Source: a virus. From it: 64,000 bases of DNA. The notes beneath the pieces were generated by a model. The model was given only the letters and a program-made list of their open reading frames with translations, was not told the origin of the DNA and made no database searches. Positions 6,790 to 18,453 of the stretch are shown here, one piece after another. A program made the translations under genes and the position numbers. Location of the stretch: IMG/VR virus record IMGVR_UViG_3300020167_000001, positions 21,021 to 85,020 of that record; one strand, 5' to 3'. The stretch's first letter is position 1. Each line of letters starts with the position of its first letter.

Positions 6790-7203
6790 ATGGCTAGATT
6801 TAATAAAGTAGATAAAAAAGTCAAACTGACTTTGGAAGAAATAATTAAGTTTCAGATAATCACTCATTGTTATATAAATCATATAACAATCAGTGATTCT
6901 GAGATTAATTGTTTGACCCTATTGGGTCTTAACGGTAAAGCAGAATTATCAGATTTTTGTAATGCATGCTGTGTACCCGAGAACAGGGACAAAGATTCTA
7001 AGCTGGCTATTACCAAAGTTATATTCAAGACCCCACAAACAGTTAGAAATTGTTTAGCTAAACTGGCTAATTACAATATCATTAGTAAAGTTGGCTTAGG
7101 TCATAATAAAACTGTGGAGTTAAATCCGGATTTGATGATTCAGATTACAGGTAACATATTGTTGGACTATAAAATTTTTCACATTGATACCCAAGAAAGC
7201 TAG
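6790..7203 (+). CDS. Hypothetical protein, possible winged-helix DNA-binding fold
   Basis: TPQTVRNCLAKLANYNII..VELNP resembles a wHTH recognition helix and wing. Confidence 0.55.
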   Translation: MARFNKVDKKVKLTLEEIIKFQIITHCYINHITISDSEINCLTLLGLNGKAELSDFCNACCVPENRDKDSKLAITKVIFKTPQTVRNCLAKLANYNIISKVGLGHNKTVELNPDLMIQITGNILLDYKIFHIDTQES

Positions 7204-7570
7204 AGATTTTAAGAAAGCCACAGCTGAAGAGACTGGGTTTTCTGAAGAATTAACAAGTTCTTTGATTGATTTTTATTGGACAACTATTAGAAAGGACCTT
7301 TCTGCTCTAGTGCACCCAAATATATCGATAGTAAACTTAGGTATATTCAAGATAAAACACTGGAAGCTTGATGAGACAACAGCCCATTATGAAGAGATCA
7401 TTGGTAAGATTGAAGGTAATTTTTATAAGCATGCCATGAGGATTGATATCAATGATAAACTTGATAAGATTCAAAGAATTAAAAAATTATTAAAAGAAGA
7501 TGAAGAAAGATTAAACAAGAAAAAAGCATTAAGAGAAAATGAAAACATTGATAAAAATATGGAACAATAA
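7184..7570 (+). CDS. HU/IHF-like DNA-binding protein
   Basis: AEETGFSEEL..IDFYWTTIRKDL..ISIVNLGIFKIK follows the HU/IHF pattern. The start codon (TTG) is uncertain. Confidence 0.65.
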   Translation: MIPKKARDFKKATAEETGFSEELTSSLIDFYWTTIRKDLSALVHPNISIVNLGIFKIKHWKLDETTAHYEEIIGKIEGNFYKHAMRIDINDKLDKIQRIKKLLKEDEERLNKKKALRENENIDKNMEQ

Positions 7571-7817
7571 ACACTTGATTTGGCAAGGTGTTATAAACAA
7601 GTTATTTAAAAAAGACCCGATTGAGATTCTCTACAGAGACCGTAAAGCTATTTGTATGAAATGTGAATTAGTTGACAGGGTAGGTCACAGTTGTGTAATG
7701 CCAGGAACCCAACCTTGTTGTAGTGATTGTGGATGTAGTCTTGCTTTAAAATTAAGATCTCCAGATTCATCCTGCCCACATCCTGATGGACCTAAATGGA
7801 AGGAGGCTCAAGTATGA
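7539..7817 (+). CDS. Small Cys-rich Zn-finger protein
   Basis: CMKC...C..CCSDCGC..K....SCP..KW pattern. Confidence 0.7.
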   Translation: MKTLIKIWNNKHLIWQGVINKLFKKDPIEILYRDRKAICMKCELVDRVGHSCVMPGTQPCCSDCGCSLALKLRSPDSSCPHPDGPKWKEAQV

Positions 7818-8047
7818 GTGGATTAATGGAGCAATTAAAAGTAGAAAATAAAAGAGTTTTTGATACATCTAAACTTCAAGATAATTATGAAGAATTTGGT
7901 ATGCTGTCTTTATTAAACTATTATTGTTCAAATGGTACTATAGATTTATCCGAATATATTAGATTAAAGGAAATGACAGAATCCCCAGATAAAGAAAACA
8001 TAGAAGTAGTTAAACAAATTTTACAATTTAAATATAACTTATTATGA
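7814..8047 (+). CDS. MCP-peptide display protein 1 (MCP ~318-336-like N-terminus plus shared helical domain)
   Basis: ATGA overlap with the upstream stop. GLMEQLKVENKRVFDTS vs MCP GLWKQLDNSYKRVYNKS; C-terminal EMTESPDKENIEVVKQIL. Confidence 0.7.
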   Translation: MSGLMEQLKVENKRVFDTSKLQDNYEEFGMLSLLNYYCSNGTIDLSEYIRLKEMTESPDKENIEVVKQILQFKYNLL

Positions 8048-8400
8048 GTGTAAGTCATGTATTATTAAAATCTAGAAGAACTGGAGCTATGCAATTTACG
8101 GAAGATTTATTTAAACAAACCTTATCAGATTTTCATAAACCGTATACTGAAAAAAGAGAGTTAGTTATTATGACTGGCCGCGGAGGTAGGGATATGCTTG
8201 ATGAAGCAATTCAAAAACAAAATGATTTAGACTTTGCTGATTTTTTAGCTTCTAAAACTTATATCTCCGAAGATGAAAAAACTCGCATTCATCAAATGAT
8301 TAATTCTACTCCTGATGATTATGAAGTAGCAAAAAGTATATTAACAAGCTTATCAGAAAAACATTTTTCTTATTATCACACAACTAAAAGATTAAAGTAA
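8044..8400 (+). CDS. MCP-peptide display protein 2 (MCP ~336-383-like plus shared helical domain)
   Basis: KRELVIMTGRGGRDMLDEAI vs MCP KRQLIVQTGMGGMRLVNEAI; C-terminal QMINSTPDDYEVAKSIL. Confidence 0.75.
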   Translation: MSVSHVLLKSRRTGAMQFTEDLFKQTLSDFHKPYTEKRELVIMTGRGGRDMLDEAIQKQNDLDFADFLASKTYISEDEKTRIHQMINSTPDDYEVAKSILTSLSEKHFSYYHTTKRLK

Positions 8401-8690
8401 TGAGTACCACACGTAATGCAATATTTATGACTATGGCCGAACAAGCTCATTTAGCAAATGTTGCTTTAGACATGGAGAAGTTTATAATGTATGGTACTCC
8501 CGATACCCAGAAAAAAGAAGCTAAAAATGCTCTTAGAAAATTATTAACAGAAAAGAAAATAACATTTACAAAAGCTAAAAATATTTTAAACATGATTAAT
8601 TCTCCCTCTAAGGATAATTTAGATTTTGCACAAATACTTTTAGATACTTTATTAACTCAAAATGTAGCAGAATATGTCAGTAACATTTAA
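8400..8690 (+). CDS. MCP-peptide display protein 3 (MCP ~277-300-like plus shared helical domain)
   Basis: FMTMAEQAHLANVALDMEKFIMYG vs MCP FLTSMESAHLTKIATDIETYLMWG; C-terminal NMINSPSKDNLDFAQILL. Confidence 0.75.
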   Translation: MSTTRNAIFMTMAEQAHLANVALDMEKFIMYGTPDTQKKEAKNALRKLLTEKKITFTKAKNILNMINSPSKDNLDFAQILLDTLLTQNVAEYVSNI

Positions 8691-9492
8691 ATCAGCCAAC
8701 CATAAATATGAAAGTCTTGATCCTGAAGAAAGGATTGACTGGATTAGTGTAACTAGTTTTGTAGCAATGTTCAAACAGAAGTTTGACCCTGTTAAGCAAT
8801 CAGTTAAATCTTCTACAAATCCAAGGTCTAAATGGTTTGGTATGGATCCTTTAGAAATTCAAGCTCATTGGGCTAATGAAACAGACAGAGCTATTACTGC
8901 AGGTTCTTGGTATCATGACCAAAGAGAAAGTGATTTAACTAGCATTGATACAATTCAAAGAGCTGGTAGAGAAATTCCTATTATCAAACCTATAATTAAT
9001 GATGGTGTAAAGCATGCTCCAGTACAAAGATTAACTGAAGGAATTTATCCTGAACATATGGTTTATCTTAAGTCTGCAGGTATCTGTGGCCAGTCAGATA
9101 GGGTTGAAGTTATTAAAGACACTGTTGATATTGTGGATTATAAAACTAACAAAGAAATTAAGATTGCAAGCTTTGTTAATTGGGAAGGTAAATCTCAAAA
9201 GATGGAAGGACCTTTATCACATGTTGATGATTGTAATTTTAATCACTATGCCTTACAGCTAAGTATTTATATGTATATTATATTAAAGCATAATCCAAGA
9301 TACAAAGCTGGTAAAATGTTTTTACATCATGTAGTTTTTGAAAAAGAGAGTGAAGACAAGTTCGGTAATCCTATTCTTAAAAGAGATACTAACGGTGAAG
9401 TAATTGTGAAAACTGTTATCCCTTATGAAGTACCTTATTTAAAAACTGAAGTTATTGCAATGATTAATTATTTACAAGATAAGAAAAAATGA
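8674..9492 (+). CDS. PD-(D/E)xK (RecB/Cas4-like) exonuclease
   Basis: SVTS..GSWYH..ICGQSD..IVDYKTN..HYALQLSIY motifs. Confidence 0.85.
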   Translation: MSVTFKSANHKYESLDPEERIDWISVTSFVAMFKQKFDPVKQSVKSSTNPRSKWFGMDPLEIQAHWANETDRAITAGSWYHDQRESDLTSIDTIQRAGREIPIIKPIINDGVKHAPVQRLTEGIYPEHMVYLKSAGICGQSDRVEVIKDTVDIVDYKTNKEIKIASFVNWEGKSQKMEGPLSHVDDCNFNHYALQLSIYMYIILKHNPRYKAGKMFLHHVVFEKESEDKFGNPILKRDTNGEVIVKTVIPYEVPYLKTEVIAMINYLQDKKK

Positions 9493-9689
9493 GTGATGAA
9501 TATGAACACCGGTCATACTGGACTAAGCTAAATGAAAGATTAAATGAAGAACAAGAAGCTATTATGTCAGAACCAATATGTTTTCATGAAGATGAAAAAG
9601 GTAACTGTTTACAGAGTTTTAGATTTGTAATGATAGATTTTAGTAAAGATGATAAACCTTTTTGTGAAACTGTAAAAAATAAAAAATGA
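9489..9689 (+). CDS. Small protein carrying an MCP ~449-463-like peptide
   Basis: GNCLQSFRFVMIDFS vs MCP GNPLSSYSFVIFDIT; ATGA-coupled on both sides. Confidence 0.6.
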   Translation: MSDEYEHRSYWTKLNERLNEEQEAIMSEPICFHEDEKGNCLQSFRFVMIDFSKDDKPFCETVKNKK

Positions 9690-10201
9690 TAAGAATATTT
9701 GATTTACAAAATGGGAAGATTATTCCTACTGAGCACTGTTATACTATAGGATATCTTAAAGATATTATGGATGAATATCCTGAAGATTATTTATCAGTAT
9801 ATGCATTTCTTTTCTACATGGTTTGTCCAAATGAAGACCTTAATCCTTATTTCAATATAGCAGAAGATGTAAAAGAAGAAACTATTATGAGAGATGTTCG
9901 CGGTAACTTTACAACTGAAGATCCTTTAGTTATTGTAGCATTAACTAACTTAACAGTTATGTTTACCACTCCAACATCAAGGGCTTACAAGGGTATAAAA
10001 ATTGCCTTAGATAACATGGGTCAAGTGATGGCTGAAACTAAACCTACATTTGGTAGAGATGGTTCAGCTACAGCTCTATTAAGAATTGCTGAGAAGTTTG
10101 ACTCCGTACGACAATCTTACAAAGGAGTATACAAAGATTTACAAGATGAACAATCAACTAGAACAAGAGGTGGAGGCTCTTTAGCTTATGATCAACAATG
10201 A
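9686..10201 (+). CDS. Putative terminase small subunit or conserved protein
   Basis: 171-aa helical protein just upstream of terL; positional inference only. Confidence 0.5.
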   Translation: MIRIFDLQNGKIIPTEHCYTIGYLKDIMDEYPEDYLSVYAFLFYMVCPNEDLNPYFNIAEDVKEETIMRDVRGNFTTEDPLVIVALTNLTVMFTTPTSRAYKGIKIALDNMGQVMAETKPTFGRDGSATALLRIAEKFDSVRQSYKGVYKDLQDEQSTRTRGGGSLAYDQQ

Positions 10202-10412
10202 TGAGTTACATAGTTGGTTATTTCACTATAACCCTTATAAAAAAGAATGGTGTGCTTTTAAAAGAGACCAGCTTAATGATTATTTTAATGGCACTTTAAA
10301 AGATGCTATTATTTCAAAAAATCACCGTATCTTAGTGACAGCTATTACAAAAGCTAATGGTGATACAGATAAGATAAAGCTTTTACTAAGAATTAAAAAA
10401 TTAAATGGATAG
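10188..10412 (+). CDS. Hypothetical protein
   Basis: 74 aa with WLFHYNPY..W; overlaps both neighbours. Confidence 0.65.
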   Translation: MINNDELHSWLFHYNPYKKEWCAFKRDQLNDYFNGTLKDAIISKNHRILVTAITKANGDTDKIKLLLRIKKLNG

Positions 10413-12606
10413 TTTCTTTTTCACAGACATACCTACATGGGAAAATGGTGTTTGGACTACTACTAGTTTTAGTACTCAGGAAGACTTTGCTCTTTTTATT
10501 AAAACACTATTTCTAGAACCAGGTAAGTATGAGTTTGATGAGACTTCTTTTATTTTTGCTAAAGAAGCCAAGAAGTATCAGAAAGATAAGTTCTATTGTG
10601 AAGCTGCAGTAAAAAGTAGAGACTACATTGAATATTGGGATTCCCAAAAAATGAGATGTAGAAAAGGAGCTTTTTACAAGAACAAAGGGAAGACCTGGTT
10701 TCTCACTAGGGAATACTACATGTGGTTGAACTTCCTACCGATCAATGATAAGGAGAAAAAGAAATTTGATTTCCCTTCTGTAAGGGATGCTCAATATCAC
10801 ATGGCCCTATATGAATTTCTGGCTGAGTTAAATTACATGCATTGTGCTATCTTAAAGAAACGTCAGATAGCTTCCTCATATTATCATGCCGCCAAGATGA
10901 TTAATTTAATCTGGTTCGAAGAAACTCCTATTCTTAAAATTGGAGCTTCTTTGAAAGGGTATGTTCTTGATACTTGGAAATTCTTAGCTGAATATAAAAA
11001 CTTCTTAGATTTAAACACTGCTTGGTACCGTGATATGAATCCTGGAAAACCTTTGGATTGGATGCAGCAAATTGAAACAACCATTCAAGGAAGTAACCGA
11101 AAGACAATGGCTGGTTTGAAGGGGGTTCTAAAAGGAACATCTTTTGAGAAAGATCCAACTGCCGGTGTTGGTGGACCTTGTACTTTCTTCTTTCATGAAG
11201 AGGGTGGAATTGCTCCACATGCCGACAAAACTTTAGGTTATATGAAGCCTGCATTAAAGTCAGGTTTGATTACTACCGGAGTATTTGCTATTGCAGGTTC
11301 TGTGGGTGACTTGAGTCAGTGTGACCCTTTAAGGAAGATGATTCTTCATCCAGAGGCTAATGATATTTATCCTGTTGAGTCTAACTTACTGGATGCTAAA
11401 GGTACTTTTGGTAAATCAGGATTATTTATTCCTGAGCAATGGTCTATGCCGCCATGTGTAGATGAGTTCGGTAACTCCAAGGTTGAAGAAGCTTTGAAAA
11501 TGCTAGATGTTTATTTTATACAAAAGAAAAAAGATTTAAGTCCTGAAGATTACCAGTTAGAATTGTCTCAGCATCCGCGTAATATTGAAGAGGCTTTTGC
11601 TACAAGAACTGTATCTTTATTTCCAAGTCATTTAGTGGCTGCTCAAAAAAGAAGAATTGAAGAAAAAGAATATGTTACTGAATTTATTGAATTGAGTAAA
11701 AATGCTGATGGTAGTTTCAATGTTGATAAGAGTAATAAGATTCCGGTGATGGAATTCCCTGTAACAAAAGCAACTGAAGATAAAACAGGAGTTATTGTTA
11801 TGCATGAAAAACCAATACCTGGTGCCGCCTGGGGAACTTATTATGCTTCTATTGACCCGGTTTCTCAAGGTAAAACTACAACTTCAGAATCCTTATGTTC
11901 TATTTACATTTACAAGATTCCCGTAGAAGTAACCAAGGATAACGGAATAGAAGTTACAACTCATATTGAACAAGACAAGATTGTAGCTCACTGGTGTGGT
12001 CGTTTTGATGATATCAACAAAACACATGAAAGATTAGAGCACATGATTGAGTGGTATAATGCATGGACATTAGTAGAAAGTAACGTGCCCGGCTTTATCA
12101 CTCACATGATCAAGAAGAGAAAACAAAAGTATCTGGTTCCTAAAGAACAGATTACTTTTAGAAAAGATATCGAGTATGTACAATCCAACTTCCAAGAATA
12201 TGGATGGAGAAACACAGGTACTTTATTCAGAGCTCATATTCTTCCTTACTTAATCGATTATTGTAAAGAAGAGTTGGATACTCAAACTGATGATACAGGT
12301 AAGATTTACAAAACCATTTATGGGATTGAACGTATACCTGATATCATGGCTATGAAAGAGATGCAGGAGTACAGAGATGGACTCAATGTGGATAGGTTAA
12401 TTGCTTTAGGAGCACTGATTGCCTTTGCTAAAGTTCAAGAAGCCAACCGTGGTATTAAGAAGAGATTTGAGAAAACAGATAAAAAAAGCTTGGAAAAGTC
12501 AGAAAATTTGTATAAATTGAATAACAGTCCGTTTAGACATATGGGGAATACAGGAGGAAATTTTGGCCAAAAACCACCAAGAAATCCATTTAAAAATTTA
12601 AGATAA
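10405..12606 (+). CDS. terL: Terminase large subunit
   Basis: Walker A-like ILKKRQIASS, Walker B FFFHEEGG, RNase H-like YASIDP, LVESN and NVDRLIA; directly upstream of the portal. Confidence 0.93.
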   Translation: MDSFFFTDIPTWENGVWTTTSFSTQEDFALFIKTLFLEPGKYEFDETSFIFAKEAKKYQKDKFYCEAAVKSRDYIEYWDSQKMRCRKGAFYKNKGKTWFLTREYYMWLNFLPINDKEKKKFDFPSVRDAQYHMALYEFLAELNYMHCAILKKRQIASSYYHAAKMINLIWFEETPILKIGASLKGYVLDTWKFLAEYKNFLDLNTAWYRDMNPGKPLDWMQQIETTIQGSNRKTMAGLKGVLKGTSFEKDPTAGVGGPCTFFFHEEGGIAPHADKTLGYMKPALKSGLITTGVFAIAGSVGDLSQCDPLRKMILHPEANDIYPVESNLLDAKGTFGKSGLFIPEQWSMPPCVDEFGNSKVEEALKMLDVYFIQKKKDLSPEDYQLELSQHPRNIEEAFATRTVSLFPSHLVAAQKRRIEEKEYVTEFIELSKNADGSFNVDKSNKIPVMEFPVTKATEDKTGVIVMHEKPIPGAAWGTYYASIDPVSQGKTTTSESLCSIYIYKIPVEVTKDNGIEVTTHIEQDKIVAHWCGRFDDINKTHERLEHMIEWYNAWTLVESNVPGFITHMIKKRKQKYLVPKEQITFRKDIEYVQSNFQEYGWRNTGTLFRAHILPYLIDYCKEELDTQTDDTGKIYKTIYGIERIPDIMAMKEMQEYRDGLNVDRLIALGALIAFAKVQEANRGIKKRFEKTDKKSLEKSENLYKLNNSPFRHMGNTGGNFGQKPPRNPFKNLR
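12489..12520 (+). promoter_or_regulatory. Possible internal promoter for the portal gene
   Basis: CTTG-N20-TAAATTGA inside the 3' end of terL, with the same spacing as the other promoters. Confidence 0.4.
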
Positions 12607-12611
12607 AAGAT

Positions 12612-15392
12612 ATGCAAGTATTAAATGCAATGCAGTTAAAGAGTGGTAAGAAAGCCGATTATAATAGAATGGGTTCTATTACTCAGCCACTTCAATTTTT
12701 ACCTAAAAGTGAGAAAGATCCTGAATGGACTGCCTGGAATATGGACTGGTTAGAATGGAATGGTCTTAAGCAATTAAGAAAAAATGCTAAAAGGTTAATG
12801 AAGAATTACAAATTAGCTAAAGGCACCATTGACAGAACTGACTATGTGAATGAGCCAGATAATGAAATGAGAGAAATTGTAGATACATTAGCTCAAGAAG
12901 ACTTCAGTGCTTTAGAGTTAAAGTTCTACCCGATAGTTCCCAATGTTATTAATGTGATGGTATCTGAGTTTGCTAAACGTAATACTAAAATTACATTTAA
13001 TGCTGTTGATGATTATTCTTATAATGATCAATTAGAGCAAAAAAGAATGCAAGTTCAGGATGTTTTATTCCAACAAGCTTCTCAAGATATTCTTGCTAAG
13101 ATGTTAGATGCCGGTCTAGATCCTGAAGACCCTGAAGTACAACAACAATTACAACAACAAACTGCACCCGAGAACTTAAAAACTTTACCCGAAATCCAAG
13201 GATTCTTTGATAAAAGTTATAGAGGAATGTGTGAGCAATGGGCTGTTCATCAACATAAAATTGATGAGGAAAGATTCAAGATGGATGAACTTGAGGAAAG
13301 AGCCTTCAGAGATATGCTTATTACAGACCGTGAGTTCTGGCACATGAAGATGAATGAGGATGACTATGATGTTGAATTATGGAATCCGGTAACTACTTTT
13401 TATCACAAGTCTCCTGAAGTACGTTATGTATCTCAAGGTAACTGGGTAGGTAAAGTTGAGATGTTAACAATCTCTGATGTTATTGATAAATACGGTTACT
13501 TGATGACTCAAGAACAGTTAGAATCTATTGAGGCTATTTATCCGGTAAGATCTGCAGGTTACCCTTTACAAGGTTACCAAAATGATGGTTCTTACTATGA
13601 TGCTACTAAATCTCATGATTGGAATGTCAACATGCCTTCTTTAGCTTATAGACAATACATGTCTATGTATGCTAATGGTGGTGGTATGATCGGAGATGGT
13701 GGTGGAGATATCATGCAGTGGATTATGGGAGAAAATGAAGATTATGCTCCTATGGGTGCCGCTTTTTTATTGAGAGCTACTACAGCTTACTGGAAGTCTC
13801 AACGTAAGGTTGGACATTTAGTTAAGATTACTGAAGAGGGTCAAACTATTACAGATATTGTAACTGAAGATTACAAGATTACGGACAAACCTTTGTACGA
13901 TACAACCTTACTTAAAAATAAAGGTAAAGATAACTTATTATTTGGAGAGCACATTGATTGGATTTGGATTAACCAGGTATATGGTGGTGTTAAAATTGGA
14001 CCTAATCAACCTTCTTTCTGGGGAATGAATAATCCTGGTGGTATTAACCCGATGTATTTAGGTATTGACCAAAATAGAATTGGGCCATTGAAATACCAAT
14101 TAAAAGGTGACAAGACTCTCTACGGCTGTAAACTTCCTGTAGAAGGAGCTATTTTCAATGACCGAAATACCAGATCAACTTCTATGGTTGATTTAATGAA
14201 GCCTTTTCAAATTGGCTACAACCTTGTTAACAACCAAATTGCTGATATCCTAGTAGACGAGTTAGGCACCGTGATCATGTTAGATCAAAATGCTTTACCT
14301 CAACACTCATTAGGAGAAGACTGGGGTAAGAATAACTTAGCTAAGGCTTATGTAGCAATGAAGAATTTCCAAATGCTCCCTTTAGATACAGCAATATCTA
14401 ATACAGAGAATCCTTTGAACTTCCAACATTTCCAAGTAATGAACCTGGAGCAAACTCAAAGAATGCTTTCTAGGATTCAAATGGCTAACTATTTCAAACA
14501 ACAATGCTTTGAAGTAATCGGTATTACTCCTCAGAGATTAGGTCAACAAATTGGTCAAACAGATACAGCTACAGGAGTAGAGCAAGCAATTGCAGGCTCA
14601 TATGCTCAAACTGAAACTTACTTTATTCAACACTGTGATTATTTGATGCCGCGTGTGCACCAGATGAGAACTGATGTGGCCCAATATTACCAATCAAGAA
14701 AACCATCTGTTAGACTACAGTATATGACTTCAGCTGATGAAAAGGTTAACTTTGAAATGAACGGTACAGATTTGCTATTAAGAGATATCAATGTGTTTGC
14801 TACAACTAAAGCAAATCAAAGAAATATCCTTGAGCAAATGAAAAAATTAGCTGCTACTAATAATACAGCCGGTGCTTCTATTTATGATTTAGGTAACTTG
14901 ATGCAGGCTGAATCTTTAGGTGAGCTTACTACTACTATGAAAGCCATAGAGAAAAAAGTTGATGCTAAAGAACAAGCTGAACGTGAGTCTGCTGAAAATA
15001 TGAAACAGCAAGAAATTGAAGCTGCTATTAAAGAAAAACAAATGCAGCTTGATCATGATATGTCTGAGGCTGAGAAGAACCGTAGAAAAGATATCCTCAT
15101 TGCTGAAATAAAATCTGCAGGTTATGGAGCTATGCAAGATATTAATGCTAATAAACAATCTGATTATCTTGATGCATTAGGAGAAATCCAAAAGTCAGAA
15201 CAGTTTCAAGAAAGTATGAATCTTCAAACTAATAAAGAAGCTTCTCAAACAGCCAATAACCGTGAGAGAGCCCAAATAGAAAGAGAGAAAATGAACACTT
15301 CTATGCAAATGAAACAGATGGATTTACAGATTGCCAGAGAAAATAAAAACAAATTTGATAGTAAAGCTAAAGCTGATAAAAAGAAGAAATAA
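12612..15392 (+). CDS. Portal protein
   Basis: 926 aa after terL; FYPIVPNVINVM, SMVDLMKPFQ and GITPQRLGQ crAss-type motifs; C-terminal coiled coil. Confidence 0.9.
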   Translation: MQVLNAMQLKSGKKADYNRMGSITQPLQFLPKSEKDPEWTAWNMDWLEWNGLKQLRKNAKRLMKNYKLAKGTIDRTDYVNEPDNEMREIVDTLAQEDFSALELKFYPIVPNVINVMVSEFAKRNTKITFNAVDDYSYNDQLEQKRMQVQDVLFQQASQDILAKMLDAGLDPEDPEVQQQLQQQTAPENLKTLPEIQGFFDKSYRGMCEQWAVHQHKIDEERFKMDELEERAFRDMLITDREFWHMKMNEDDYDVELWNPVTTFYHKSPEVRYVSQGNWVGKVEMLTISDVIDKYGYLMTQEQLESIEAIYPVRSAGYPLQGYQNDGSYYDATKSHDWNVNMPSLAYRQYMSMYANGGGMIGDGGGDIMQWIMGENEDYAPMGAAFLLRATTAYWKSQRKVGHLVKITEEGQTITDIVTEDYKITDKPLYDTTLLKNKGKDNLLFGEHIDWIWINQVYGGVKIGPNQPSFWGMNNPGGINPMYLGIDQNRIGPLKYQLKGDKTLYGCKLPVEGAIFNDRNTRSTSMVDLMKPFQIGYNLVNNQIADILVDELGTVIMLDQNALPQHSLGEDWGKNNLAKAYVAMKNFQMLPLDTAISNTENPLNFQHFQVMNLEQTQRMLSRIQMANYFKQQCFEVIGITPQRLGQQIGQTDTATGVEQAIAGSYAQTETYFIQHCDYLMPRVHQMRTDVAQYYQSRKPSVRLQYMTSADEKVNFEMNGTDLLLRDINVFATTKANQRNILEQMKKLAATNNTAGASIYDLGNLMQAESLGELTTTMKAIEKKVDAKEQAERESAENMKQQEIEAAIKEKQMQLDHDMSEAEKNRRKDILIAEIKSAGYGAMQDINANKQSDYLDALGEIQKSEQFQESMNLQTNKEASQTANNRERAQIEREKMNTSMQMKQMDLQIARENKNKFDSKAKADKKKK

Positions 15393-16827: not shown

Positions 16828-18453
16828 ATGTCAACTCCAGTTTTAAACAACGGTATATTCTTGCGTGACACAAACTACAATGCTAGTTCTCATGTAGATT
16901 CTTACCACTTAGTAAACATGCTTAAGGATGCCGAACCAATGGATATGGGACCAGTAGATATCTGGGCTATGTCTCAAAAAGTTGAAATGCCTTTATACCA
17001 ATTATCATCTTTTGGTGGTAAGAACATTATCATGGTTGATAATGCTCGCGGTGAATACAAATGGCAAACTCCTGTATCTCAGGATTTACCTTACATCATT
17101 GAAGATATTGAACCGGCTAACCTTAACAAAGGTGTTGATGGTACAACTTTCAAGATTAAAATCAACAAACGTGAATTTGGTCATGGTGATATCATCACTT
17201 ATGATAAATATAATGGTGTTGAGATGTACATTACAGCTGATGATATCTTACCTATGGGAGATGGATTCATCTACACAGTACAATTAGTAAACAATGACAA
17301 CTACAAATTCCTAGAGAATAAGTATTTAACTCCTCAAACTAAATTATTCCGTAAAGGTTCTGCTCGTGGAGAATATGGTGAAAGATTCTCTGATATCCAA
17401 ACTAAAGCTGGATTCCGTGAGTTCTACAACTTCGTAGGTGGAGCTGAAGCACATGTTCATTATTCAGTATCTTCTCGTGCTGACTTAATGTTAAAAGGTG
17501 GTATGAATGCAGATGGTACAGTTCCTGTAACTGAAATCTGGAGAAACTTTGACAAGAATGTAGATCCATCAATTTCTAAAATTGAGGACATTGCTTCTAA
17601 GATGGGTAAAGACTACTTAAAACGTGCTGTAGGAAATGGTACATTAACCCGTACTTTCTTAACATCGATGGAGTCTGCTCACTTAACTAAAATTGCTACT
17701 GACATTGAGACTTACTTAATGTGGGGTCATGGTGGTGGATTGAAGCAAGATGGTCCAGATGATATGCGTTTATCAGTGGGTCTTTGGAAACAATTAGACA
17801 ACTCTTACAAACGCGTATACAACAAGTCTAGTTTCTCATTAGAATTGTTCCGTTCTGAGTTGTATAACTTCTATGCTGGTCGTGTAGAGTTCCAAGGTCC
17901 AGATCCTAAGAGACAATTAATTGTTCAAACAGGTATGGGTGGTATGAGATTAGTAAATGAGGCTATCAAGCGTGAAGCTGTTAACTCTGGTTTAGTAATC
18001 CAAGCTGCAAGCAACAATGGTATTGGAGCTATCTCTGGTCAAGGAATGGACTTAAACTTTGGATTTGCTTTCACATCTTATGTGATTCCTTTCTTAGCAA
18101 ATGTGAAATTTGTATTAAACCCTGCATTTGATAACTTACATACAAATGATATTGAGAACCCAATCATTGATGGTAACCCATTAAGTTCTTACTCATTTGT
18201 TATCTTTGATATCACTGATACAGGAAACGATAACATCTTCATGTTAAAATTATCTTGGGATAATCAATTGAAATGGTGGTACCAAAACGGTACTATGGAT
18301 TACATGGGAAGAACTCAAGGGTTCCAATCATCTGGTCAATTCAATGGTTACCGTGTGATGATGTCACAAACAATGCCAGCTATTTGGGTTAAAGATCCAA
18401 CTAAGGTATTAAAAATTGTAATGAGAAACCCTATCACAGGAGGATCATTCTAA
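16828..18453 (+). CDS. Major capsid protein (crAss-type HK97 fold)
   Basis: 541 aa with highly expressed codon usage (ttc, aac, cgt), followed by a strong terminator; EYKW, LMWG, GLW.QL, QTG.GG and IWVKDPTK motifs. Confidence 0.9.
   Translation: MSTPVLNNGIFLRDTNYNASSHVDSYHLVNMLKDAEPMDMGPVDIWAMSQKVEMPLYQLSSFGGKNIIMVDNARGEYKWQTPVSQDLPYIIEDIEPANLNKGVDGTTFKIKINKREFGHGDIITYDKYNGVEMYITADDILPMGDGFIYTVQLVNNDNYKFLENKYLTPQTKLFRKGSARGEYGERFSDIQTKAGFREFYNFVGGAEAHVHYSVSSRADLMLKGGMNADGTVPVTEIWRNFDKNVDPSISKIEDIASKMGKDYLKRAVGNGTLTRTFLTSMESAHLTKIATDIETYLMWGHGGGLKQDGPDDMRLSVGLWKQLDNSYKRVYNKSSFSLELFRSELYNFYAGRVEFQGPDPKRQLIVQTGMGGMRLVNEAIKREAVNSGLVIQAASNNGIGAISGQGMDLNFGFAFTSYVIPFLANVKFVLNPAFDNLHTNDIENPIIDGNPLSSYSFVIFDITDTGNDNIFMLKLSWDNQLKWWYQNGTMDYMGRTQGFQSSGQFNGYRVMMSQTMPAIWVKDPTKVLKIVMRNPITGGSF

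What the first reader, a model, noticed from the sequence alone, without database searches (positions are those of the whole stretch)
7814..8690. Three tandem genes each display a different peptide of the phage's own major capsid protein on a shared scaffold (candidate capsid-mimic/decoy system)
Seen in sequence: (a) 8400 FMTMAEQAHLANVALDMEKFIMYG vs MCP 277-300 FLTSMESAHLTKIATDIETYLMWG, 11/24 identical. (b) 7814 GLMEQLKVENKRVFDTSKL vs MCP 318-336 GLWKQLDNSYKRVYNKSSF, 8/19. (c) 8044 FTEDLFKQTLSDF..E/KRELVIMTGRGGRDMLDEAIQKQ vs MCP 336-383 FSLELFRSELYNF..E/KRQLIVQTGMGGMRLVNEAIKRE, 16/42 with one gap. The pieces tile one nearly contiguous MCP stretch (nt 17656-17976) but in shuffled order. Each is fused to the same C-terminal motif, I...[E/K]......M..S...[D/N]......IL. 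The genes are intact and translationally coupled, unlike a decaying MCP duplicate. Established: MCPs trigger anti-phage systems (T4 Gol peptide/Lit, CapRelSJ46). Inference: these are decoys that saturate capsid sensors, dominant-negative poisons of competitor capsid assembly, or assembly regulators. I do not know of a described system with this architecture.
Basis: partly seen in the sequence, partly recalled or inferred. Interest (0 to 1): 0.93.

Follow-up and report, generated by a model that had tools for sequence, protein, structure and literature searches.

The report
Mini-proteins built from capsid-protein pieces
Three small neighbouring genes of an uncultured crAss-like phage each join a different short piece copied from the phage's own head-shell protein to the same small helical domain; they belong to a large gene family I found described in no paper, and their job is untested, though they probably imitate the shell protein in conflicts with the host.

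Summary
g2 (8044-8400) and g3 (8400-8690) resemble MCP residues 336-383 and 277-314 (BLASTP E 4e-7 and 2e-7; 0 of 1000 shuffles each). g1 (7814-8047) is not significant alone (73 of 1000) but its family profile matches MCP 309-335 (hhalign E 1.8e-4).

All three share a ~48-residue C-terminal helical module. A profile of it finds 545 protein clusters among 1.84 billion, nearly all of 42-200 aa. Of 140 N-termini tested, 43 resemble the MCP at no more than 2 of 200 shuffles, and 42 of those fall in five MCP segments, all within 272-541.

The genes are cassettes inserted at start codons in a hypervariable slot. Of 56 related loci, 19 hold 1-2 members and 27 are empty. g1 and g2 evolve under purifying selection.

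No function was tested. My best guess is that they mimic unassembled MCP, most likely as decoys for host capsid sensors (0.4). Tuning of head assembly is the main rival.

I found no paper describing this. Unchecked notes from this scan report similar capsid-piece mini-genes in unrelated phages on other DNA.

The parts
7814..8047 (+). g1, 77 aa (an upstream in-frame ATG at 7796 would give 83 aa). The likely start is ATG 7814, behind AAGGAGG at 7800-7806.
   Evidence: The homologue P0020 is 77 aa and starts at the same Met. dN/dS vs L007/L008 is 0.39-0.48.
7820..7876 (+). g1 N-terminal module resembling MCP 318-336 (type B).
   Evidence: Alone 28/500 and 73/1000 shuffles. The family profile A5 vs MCP 309-335 gives hhalign E 1.8e-4. 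Relatives L033 (0/500) and L068 (3/500) match in the same register.
7895..8044 (+). g1 copy of the shared ~48-aa C-terminal module.
   Evidence: HMM E 3.9e-11 in the first round and 3.6e-20 after iteration; alignment A2.
8044..8400 (+). g2, 118 aa. It is the resident gene of the slot: relatives L001, L002 and L005 have it alone.
   Evidence: dN/dS 0.15-0.44 in the N half and 0.09-0.27 in the C half.
8095..8220 (+). g2 N-terminal module resembling MCP 336-383 (type C: helix, strand, Gly-rich turn, helix). R38, T44, G45 and G48 are conserved family-wide and match MCP R362, T368, G369 and G372.
   Evidence: BLASTP E 4e-7; 0/1000 shuffles; hhalign A3 vs A4 E 4.6e-9, probability 96%; 17 of 44 type-C proteins hit Pfam Crass_capsid at E<=0.1; alignment A3.
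8218..8364 (+). g2 copy of the shared C-terminal module. It is modelled as three helices, the first continuous with the last MCP-like helix.
   Evidence: AlphaFold2 model with mean pLDDT 78.4 and blocks of 92-94 over residues 51-100.
8400..8690 (+). g3, 96 aa.
   Evidence: Full-length relatives: L029 1725-2042 (tblastn E 1.25e-14), P0160 and P0056.
8409..8513 (+). g3 N-terminal module resembling MCP 272-306 (type A).
   Evidence: BLASTP E 2e-7; 0/1000 and 0/500 shuffles; hhalign A6 vs A4 E 1.2e-6; tblastn of g3 hits the MCP gene of 80 related loci and of locus L004.
8514..8663 (+). g3 copy of the shared C-terminal module.
   Evidence: HMM E 5.6e-3 in the first round and 1.6e-15 after iteration.
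7813..8042 (+). 230-nt g1 cassette, absent from relatives. It is inserted at the start codon of g2 and flanked by the repeated ATGAGTG.
   Evidence: Alignment with L002. A wastewater contig skips exactly 7812->8043.
8400..8673 (+). 274-nt g3 cassette, absent from relatives. It is inserted at the TAATG junction of g2 and the exonuclease gene.
   Evidence: A contig joint runs 8399->8674 (short side of 33 letters).
7539..7817 (+). Conserved Cys-rich (Zn-finger-like) gene, the left flank of the slot.
   Evidence: found in 58 loci.
8674..9492 (+). PD-(D/E)XK-type exonuclease gene, the right flank of the slot.
   Evidence: PHROG 298 at E 9.9e-18; found in 64 loci.
16828..18453 (+). Major capsid protein, 541 aa.
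   Evidence: Pfam PF23898 at E 4e-32; PDB 7qof at E 4.4e-7.
17650..17985 (+). MCP residues 275-386, the stretch imitated by g3, g1 and g2.
9489..9689 (+). 66-aa gene in the second slot after the exonuclease. It has a weak resemblance to MCP 448-463, lacks the shared module, and its membership is doubtful.
Evidence: 42/1000 shuffles vs the MCP and 8/1000 vs the L014 family member.

Best explanation
SHOWN. g1, g2 and g3 belong to a large family of small accessory proteins of an uncultured clade of crAss-like phages found in lake-water and wastewater metagenomes. I found the family described in no paper.

Each protein has an N-terminal module of 20-60 residues that is an old, diverged copy of one piece of the HK97-fold body of the phage's own MCP. 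In the window these pieces are 272-306, 309-335 and 335-386. Relatives also carry 441-464 and 506-535, and combinations of pieces. A shared C-terminal module of about 48 residues follows; it is modelled as three helices and has no known relative.

The genes are cassettes inserted at start codons in hypervariable slots on either side of an exonuclease gene, just upstream of the terminase and head genes. They are gained, lost and swapped between close relatives. The g2 N-module is exchanged as a unit.

INFERRED. The proteins act as mimics of unassembled MCP. The MCP-like module competes with real MCP for something that recognises these conserved, mutation-intolerant elements. The constant C-module supplies a common activity such as oligomerisation, blocking or tethering.

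The partner I consider most likely is a host immune sensor of the capsid protein. A phage that cannot mutate the sensed MCP element would escape by making a decoy, and different cassettes would answer different sensors.
For: MCP derivation:
- BLASTP E 4e-7 and 2e-7.
- Reciprocal best hits among 200 window ORFs.
- hhalign E 4.6e-9, 1.2e-6 and 1.8e-4 for the three types.
- 17 of 44 type-C proteins hit Pfam Crass_capsid; the next most frequent family is hit by 3 of 44.
- 43 of 140 representative N-termini reach no more than 2/200 shuffles, and 42 of those lie in five segments of MCP 272-541.
- Only the MCP and g1-g3 are best hits at E<0.05.

Shared module: clean HMM separation, 1.6e-15 against 0.31, and 545 clusters in the representative library.

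Real genes: dN/dS of 0.09-0.44 for g2 and 0.39-0.48 for g1.

Accessory, fast-turnover behaviour, which by my own knowledge is typical of conflict genes:
- Of 56 loci, 19 are occupied, 27 are empty and 10 hold other genes, with 49 distinct slot sequences.
- The cassette junctions are exact.
- Variants with and without g1, and a g2 variant with a swapped N-module, occur in one metagenome run; a weaker joint there (33-letter side) also skips g3.
- In divergent g2 alleles the N half falls to 44-47% identity while the C half stays at 90-92%.

The imitated MCP elements hold many columns that are invariant across 18 MCPs of 83-94% identity, so escape by mutation should be costly (inference).

Host sensing of MCPs is established: CapRelSJ46 (passages of PMC13728456), and Avs7 and Dsr1 with EF-Tu (abstract and passages of bioRxiv 10.64898/2026.01.04.697583).
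Against: - No binding, expression or phenotype data exist.
- No host or host sensor is identified.
- The imitated pieces are core secondary-structure elements of the fold and not obviously surface patches. The published Avs sensors recognise whole folded proteins through extended interfaces (passages), which short pieces would mimic poorly.
- A decoy carrying the sensed element could trigger the sensor instead of blocking it.
- The genes lie in the same orientation directly upstream of the head genes, which suits an assembly role equally well.
- 97 of 140 N-termini show no detectable MCP similarity.
- A fourth module-bearing protein of this genome has an N-terminus unlike the MCP.
- The D+B composite subfamily matches the MCP only weakly as a profile (E 0.031).
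Confidence: 0.4

Rival explanations
1. Assembly modulators. The MCP-like modules bind MCP itself, or its scaffold or auxiliary partners, by standing in for the element they copy. In this way they hold MCP back, chaperone it, or tune the timing or geometry of head assembly for the phage's own benefit.
For: - The genes lie on the same strand and tightly packed about 2 kb upstream of the terminase, portal, putative scaffold and MCP genes.
- The copied pieces are core elements of the A and P domains, the part aligned to crAss001 gp32 286-498, which make the fold and its contacts (my inference from the HK97 fold).
- Residues conserved in type C are the ones conserved in MCPs as far away as crAss001.
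- The same slot in relatives holds a zinc-ribbon mini-protein with weak similarity to DnaJ and anti-TRAP (E 0.0098-0.057).
Against: - The genes are dispensable: 27 of 56 slots are empty and copy number runs from 0 to 3, although the MCPs of these phages are 83-99% identical. An assembly factor would be expected to track the MCP.
- The N-modules evolve fast and are swapped.
Confidence: 0.25
2. Weapons against rival phages or capsid-stealing satellites. The proteins act as dominant-negative MCP pieces that poison the assembly of a co-infecting relative, or as decoys for a satellite's capsid-redirecting protein.
For: - The genes are hypervariable, cassette-like accessory genes.
- Many close relatives coexist in the same samples: at least 594 related loci in IMG/VR, and variants within one run.
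- Capsid-derived interference is known elsewhere: SaPIbov5 Ccm, a homologue of the helper capsid protein (abstract of PMC8569155), and Fv1 in mice (recalled).
Against: The copied MCP segments hold many invariant columns across the clade, so a poison would hit the producer as well. No satellite is seen. The modules are only about 34% identical to any MCP of the clade.
Confidence: 0.12
3. Exaptation with no link to capsid biology. MCP gene fragments were only raw material for new small genes, and the proteins now do something unrelated that is set by the C-terminal module.
For: - A module-bearing protein elsewhere in the genome, and most representative N-termini (97 of 140), show no MCP similarity.
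- The module alone is the best conserved part.
Against: - Only the MCP serves as donor, from five segments and in several lineages.
- MCP-conserved residues stay conserved in the mini-proteins.
- The MCP-like half of g2 is under purifying selection (dN/dS 0.15-0.44).
Confidence: 0.15
4. Chance similarity, or decaying remnants of an MCP duplication.
For: g1 alone is not significant (73/1000). The individual motifs are short.
Against: - E-values, shuffles, reciprocal best hits and the independent Pfam profile all support real similarity.
- The frames are intact and coupled.
- dN/dS is below 1.
- There are 545 clusters with the same architecture.
Confidence: 0.03

Closest known systems
Crassvirus major capsid protein (Pfam PF23898; crAss001 gp32, PDB 7qof)
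   Same: The N-terminal modules are homologous to segments of this protein's A/P-domain body.
   Different: The modules cover only 20-60 residues of a fold of about 500, cannot form an HK97 fold, and are fused to an unrelated helical module. They are accessory and not structural.
MCP elements as immune triggers: the Gol region of T4 gp23 with Lit/EF-Tu (recalled), MCP with CapRelSJ46 (passages of PMC13728456), and MCP with Avs7/Dsr1 plus EF-Tu (abstract and passages of bioRxiv 10.64898/2026.01.04.697583)
   Same: They show that hosts read the capsid protein, in the Gol case through a short stretch of it. This is the sort of partner a mimic could compete for.
   Different: Those are host sensors and the real MCP. 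No phage-encoded MCP-piece protein is part of any of them, and none of these sensors is known for this phage.
Phage anti-defence mimics and sponges (for example the DNA mimic Ocr, and nucleotide sponges; recalled, and the review PMC13728456 in passages)
   Same: The proposed logic is the same: a small accessory protein in a variable region imitates what the defence binds.
   Different: Those mimic DNA or bind signalling molecules. None is built from pieces of the phage's own structural protein on a shared scaffold.
SaPIbov5 Ccm, a satellite-encoded homologue of the helper capsid protein (abstract of PMC8569155)
   Same: It is a capsid-protein-derived gene used to act on capsid assembly.
   Different: Ccm is a full-length HK97-fold homologue that co-assembles, and a satellite encodes it. 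Here the phage itself encodes short pieces.
Capsid-piece mini-genes noted earlier in this scan in T4-like and jumbo phages (e1-5690048, e1-5370869, e1-5973440, e1-5691485, e1-5643665, e1-5346559)
   Same: The design is the same: small genes joining a diverged MCP piece to a shared small domain or tag.
   Different: They occur in other phage lineages, with other MCP families and other shared domains (SH3-like, Tat leaders). These are AI notes that I did not check.

Membership tests
Crassvirus major capsid protein (PF23898 / HK97 fold) | Scores above Pfam's gathering threshold (27 bits) | tested here: not met
   g1, g2 and g3 give no PF23898 hit at E<=0.1. 17 of 44 type-C relatives hit at E<=0.1, the best at 2.7e-4, which is sub-threshold local similarity.
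Crassvirus major capsid protein (PF23898 / HK97 fold) | Full fold of about 500 aa with N-arm, E-loop/I-domain, P-domain and A-domain | tested here: not met
   The proteins are 77-118 aa and the aligned MCP stretches span 27-46 columns. Only 1 of 43 significant N-termini maps to MCP 1-271.
New family: MCP-piece plus shared C-terminal module (defined here) | C-terminal helical module of about 48 aa matching the A2 profile | tested here: met
   g1 3.6e-20, g2 7.4e-22, g3 1.6e-15; the best non-member scores 0.31.
New family: MCP-piece plus shared C-terminal module (defined here) | N-terminal module with significant similarity to a segment of the MCP body | tested here: met
   g2 and g3 meet it individually. 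g1 meets it only at profile level (E 1.8e-4).
New family: MCP-piece plus shared C-terminal module (defined here) | Location in the variable slots flanking the PD-(D/E)XK exonuclease gene | tested here: met
   The exception is a fourth module protein at G000:C1:1139-1339.
Phage anti-defence decoys / mimics | Binds a host defence protein and blocks its activation | not testable with these tools
PADLOC gives only a BrxC hit at E 0.047 for g1, which I read as chance.
Scaffolding or assembly proteins of tailed phages | Conserved and required wherever the MCP is conserved | tested here: not met
   27 of 56 slots are empty and 10 hold unrelated genes, while the MCPs are 83-99% identical. Only about 20 kb around the MCP was examined per locus.
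Capsid-redirecting MCP homologues (Ccm type) | Complete HK97-fold homologue able to co-assemble | tested here: not met
   Only short pieces are present. The g2 model is helical with no beta sheet.

The most novel reading that the evidence does not exclude
Phages whose capsid protein is read by host immunity, and cannot mutate without breaking the shell, escape by carrying exchangeable cassettes of decoys. Each decoy is a diverged piece of the MCP body on a common helical module, so a phage can hold an array (three here) covering several sensed elements. If the unchecked notes of this scan on T4-like and jumbo phages are right, the same solution arose independently in unrelated phage lineages. 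That would make capsid-piece mimicry a general class of counter-defence or capsid-control gene that I found described in no paper.
Probability: 0.3. Interest if true: 0.92.

Novelty: categorically new. Interest (0 to 1): 0.8.

Why it matters
Capsid proteins are now known to be major triggers of bacterial immunity, but I found no published phage countermeasure built from the capsid protein itself.

This family is large: 545 clusters at 50% identity. It has a clear modular grammar of five MCP pieces and one constant module, and it shows natural presence/absence and module-swap variants.

That gives ready-made experiments: which MCP elements matter, who binds them, and what the constant module does. 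If instead the proteins tune assembly, they would be a new kind of capsid chaperone or inhibitor derived from the capsid's own elements. Either way they point to the parts of the HK97 fold that something in the infected cell recognises.

Tried and rejected
- GenBank phages: no DNA or protein match for the region, g2 or g3. The nearest cultured MCP is Leptolyngbya phage Lbo-JY46 at 27% identity.
- PHROGs, Pfam, NCBIfam and PADLOC gave no family for g1-g3. The weak hits (IMEF encapsulin cargo E 0.018, BrxC E 0.047, Pox_A3L E 0.06) I treat as chance.
- The C-module profile against the PDB gave only a designed coiled-coil protein at E 0.0031. Foldseek of the g2 model against the PDB gave nothing at E<=0.001. 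The ESM Atlas gave scores of 0.82-0.85, within its stated chance range.
- The AlphaFold2 model of the MCP failed (mean pLDDT 29.2), so I make no 3D claim. Its helix 272-298 and its strand/helix pattern at 338-386 are low-confidence hints only.
- g1 C-module vs the 926-aa protein at 12612-15392 (BLASTP E 2e-4): rejected, because the module profile gives E 0.46. The module is not MCP-derived either (E 0.28).
- The D+B composite subfamily matched the MCP only at E 0.031 over 13 columns as a profile. It is suggestive only.
- L042/L043 72-aa protein: 103/1000 shuffles. The 66-aa gene 9489-9689: 42/1000.
- P0054 (4032 aa, 9 partial stretches) is a repetitive protein with Ig-like domains and a secretion sorting tail; I treat the hit as spurious.
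- The promoter/terminator scan did not exceed shuffles.
- No RNA holder was listed, so expression is untested.
- Co-variation with each phage's own MCP could not be tested. The search for related loci found no relative of P0163 and only a 5.2-kb contig for P0125, and the MCP segments hold many invariant columns.
- The last homologous-protein search listed only MCPs of at least 90% identity. It did not deepen the alignment.
- Literature: six searches found no paper on phage proteins made of MCP pieces. Supplements were closed and were not consulted.
- The library holds open-access papers and preprints only.
Full report
**What is there**

The window carries three small, tightly coupled + strand genes:
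- g1 at 7796/7814-8047
- g2 at 8044-8400
- g3 at 8400-8690

They lie between a conserved Cys-rich gene (7539-7817) and a PD-(D/E)XK-type exonuclease gene (8674-9492; PHROG 298 at E 9.9e-18). This is about 2 kb upstream of a 733-aa gene (10405-12606) that I take, from position and size only, to be the large terminase.

The 541-aa protein at 16828-18453 is the major capsid protein (MCP). It matches Pfam Crass_capsid at E 4e-32 and crAss001 gp32 (PDB 7qof) at E 4.4e-7 over residues 313-531.

The window is bases 21021-85020 of an 85-kb viral record. Its DNA is held by a lake-water metagenome that may be its source, and partly by other lake-water and wastewater runs. The nearest cultured MCP is only 27% identical.

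**Check of the observation**

| Test | g1 | g2 | g3 |
|---|---|---|---|
| MCP residues matched | 318-336 | 336-383 | 277-314 |
| BLASTP E-value | match not reported | 4e-7 | 2e-7 |
| Smith-Waterman, shuffles reaching the score, of 1000 | 73 | 0 | 0 |

Against all 200 ORFs of at least 40 aa in the window, the MCP is the best non-self hit of g2 and g3, and they are the MCP's best hits (E 7.5e-6 to 9.4e-5). The next hit of the MCP is at E 0.44.

At the nucleotide level the matched parts are 46-54% identical, with third codon positions matching least often. The likeness is therefore old and held at protein level. It is not a recent copy or an assembly artefact.

**The shared C-terminal module is real**

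Pairwise the three C-termini align only weakly (29-77 of 1000 shuffles).

I fetched 80 related loci through the MCP (594 of 598 candidate stretches confirmed; best 80 kept) and 8 through g2. An HMM built from 15 motif-bearing ORFs of relatives, none from the window, found g1 at 3.9e-11, g2 at 3.4e-4 and g3 at 5.6e-3 among 6554 ORFs.

Iteration converged on 30 ORFs with 28 distinct modules. The worst member scored 1.6e-15 and the best non-member 0.31.

A profile of the 28 modules (A2), scored against 1.84 billion representative proteins, found 545 clusters at E<=1e-3 and 56 at E<=1e-10. Nearly all are 42-200 aa with the module at the C-terminal end. One 4032-aa hit is a repetitive Ig-domain protein and I set it aside.

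The module has no relative in Pfam, NCBIfam, PADLOC or the PDB that I would trust.

An AlphaFold2 model of g2 with 44 relatives (mean pLDDT 78.4) shows:
- a helix at 20-31
- an unpaired stretch at 32-45
- a long helix at 46-70 that runs from the MCP-like part into the module
- helices at 76-87 and 90-108

Foldseek found nothing at E<=0.001.

**The N-termini are pieces of the MCP, family-wide**

Profile against profile (hhalign, each against 18 MCPs):

| Type | Proteins in profile | MCP residues matched | E-value | Probability |
|---|---|---|---|---|
| g2 | 44 | 335-386 | 4.6e-9 | 96% |
| g3 | 4 | 275-306 | 1.2e-6 | 91% |
| g1 | 7 | 309-335 | 1.8e-4 | 48% |

As controls, the C-module profile gives E 0.28 against the MCPs and 0.46 against the 926-aa protein at 12612-15392.

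Scanned one by one against all of Pfam, 17 of the 44 g2-type proteins hit Crass_capsid at E<=0.1. No other family is hit by more than 3.

In the related loci, 26 distinct N-termini were tested against their own phage's MCP (the window's MCP where a locus held none) with 500 shuffles. Nine gave 0/500 and three more gave 1-3/500. They fall on five MCP segments:
- 272-300: g3, L029
- 312-354: L033, L068; also g1, L007 and L069 in the same register but weaker
- 336-383: g2 and its relatives
- 441-464: L014
- 506-535: L027, L078

Ten of the 26 showed nothing.

Among the best 150 database representatives, 140 had a usable N-terminus. Of these, 43 reached no more than 2/200 shuffles. They distribute as follows:

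| MCP segment | Significant N-termini |
|---|---|
| 336-386 | 32 |
| 312-335 | 3 |
| 272-300 | 3 |
| 506-541 | 3 |
| 441-465 | 1 |
| 1-271 | 1 |

Searched against the window's 200 ORFs, the only best hits at E<0.05 were the MCP (15), g2 (22), g3 (3) and g1 (2). The donor is the MCP alone, and only its A/P-domain body. That body is the part that aligns with crAss001 gp32, behind the E-loop insertion domain described for that protein (passages of PMC10172136).

Some proteins appear to combine pieces with the loop between them missing (sequences listed). For the large D+B subfamily the profile evidence is weak (E 0.031 over 13 columns).

**They are living genes and mobile cassettes**

g2 compared with three close relatives has dN/dS of 0.15-0.44 in the MCP-like half and 0.09-0.27 in the module half. 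g1 has 0.39-0.48 overall.

In more distant g2 alleles the N half falls to 44-47% identity while the C half stays at 90-92%.

Close relatives L001 and L002 have g2 alone. Aligned with L002, the window has two exact insertions:
- 230 nt (7813-8042) at the start codon of g2, flanked by a repeated ATGAGTG
- 274 nt (8400-8673) at the TAATG junction with the exonuclease gene

In one wastewater run a contig skips exactly 7812->8043 and a joint runs 8399->8674 (short side of 33 letters). Another contig keeps g1 but replaces 8055-8213 of g2 by 169 other letters.

Of 56 loci that hold both flanking genes (49 distinct slot sequences):
- 14 carry one family gene
- 5 carry two
- 27 are essentially empty
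- 10 hold other small genes

The window's three is the most I saw. A second slot just after the exonuclease holds members in L033 and L093. The genome has a fourth module protein outside the window whose N-terminus is not MCP-like.

**How it most likely works**

What is shown is anatomy and evolution. The rest is inference.

The combination has four parts:
- MCP-only donor
- conserved MCP residues retained (R38, T44, G45, G48 of g2, matching MCP R362, T368, G369, G372)
- one constant module
- rapid gain, loss and swapping in an accessory slot

This points to proteins that imitate unassembled MCP and compete for something that recognises it.

I rank a host capsid sensor first (0.4). MCP sensing by bacterial immunity is established. 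The copied elements hold many invariant columns in the MCPs, so mutational escape should be costly. The turnover looks like a conflict locus.

The main rival (0.25) is self-directed control of head assembly. The position next to the head genes and the core nature of the copied elements favour it. The dispensability of the genes argues against it.

Interference with rival phages or satellites (0.12) and exaptation unrelated to capsids (0.15) remain open. Chance similarity or a decaying duplicate is effectively excluded (0.03).

**Comparison with the known, and novelty**

The proteins are not members of the MCP family: they have neither the fold, the length nor a threshold score. They match no known anti-defence, scaffold or Ccm-type family.

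Six literature searches found no description of phage proteins built from MCP pieces.

Notes of this scan, unchecked by me, report similar mini-genes in T4-like and jumbo phages on other DNA. If they hold, the design is convergent and general.

**Limits**

- No expression, binding or phenotype evidence.
- No host.
- The MCP model failed (pLDDT 29.2).
- g1's MCP likeness rests on the family profile, not on g1 alone.

Noticed in passing
L005 10357-10635; L014 1186-1443; L017 589-798; L025 859-1167; L027 1384-1602; L047 1571-1834: The same hypervariable slot in relatives often holds a small protein with two CxxC motifs, the second followed by G. It has weak similarity to anti-TRAP RtpA (E 0.0098) and to the DnaJ zinc-finger region (E 0.057). 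It may be a chaperone-type zinc ribbon beside the capsid-piece genes.
   Followed up: partly
window 9489-9689: The 66-aa gene right after the exonuclease sits where L033 and L093 carry family members. It has a 15-residue stretch like MCP 448-463 but lacks the shared module. The match is weak: 42/1000 shuffles vs the MCP and 8/1000 vs the L014 member.
   Followed up: partly
G000:C1:1139-1339, minus strand (outside the window; locus L092): A fourth protein of this genome carries the shared C-terminal module (E 6.8e-9). It lies among opposite-strand genes, and its short N-terminus is not MCP-like.
   Followed up: partly
L049 2042-2260; L053 1014-1235; L056 347-565; L060 958-1176: A 72-73-aa acidic protein with conserved His and Cys residues occupies the slot in another set of relatives. 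It has no family assignment.
   Followed up: no
L045/L046 428-764; L093 976-1371: A further unrelated protein of 111-131 aa recurs in the slot of more distant relatives, upstream of the family member or of the exonuclease gene.
   Followed up: no
window 7800-7806: A strong Shine-Dalgarno-like AAGGAGG lies 7 nt before the g1 start and is conserved before g2 in L002. The downstream cassettes rely on ATGA and TAATG overlaps. The same junction words seem to serve as the recombination sites for cassette exchange.
   Followed up: partly
window 12612-15392 (residues 65-101) vs g1 residues 41-83: BLASTP gives E 2e-4 between the g1 module and the N-terminal part of the 926-aa protein (putative portal by position). 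The module profile does not support it (E 0.46), so it is probably chance.
   Followed up: yes
window 7000-10000 in run X3: One wastewater metagenome run holds several variants of this locus side by side: without g1, with g1, and with a replaced g2 N-module, plus a weaker joint that skips g3. Cassette polymorphism therefore exists within one sample.
   Followed up: partly
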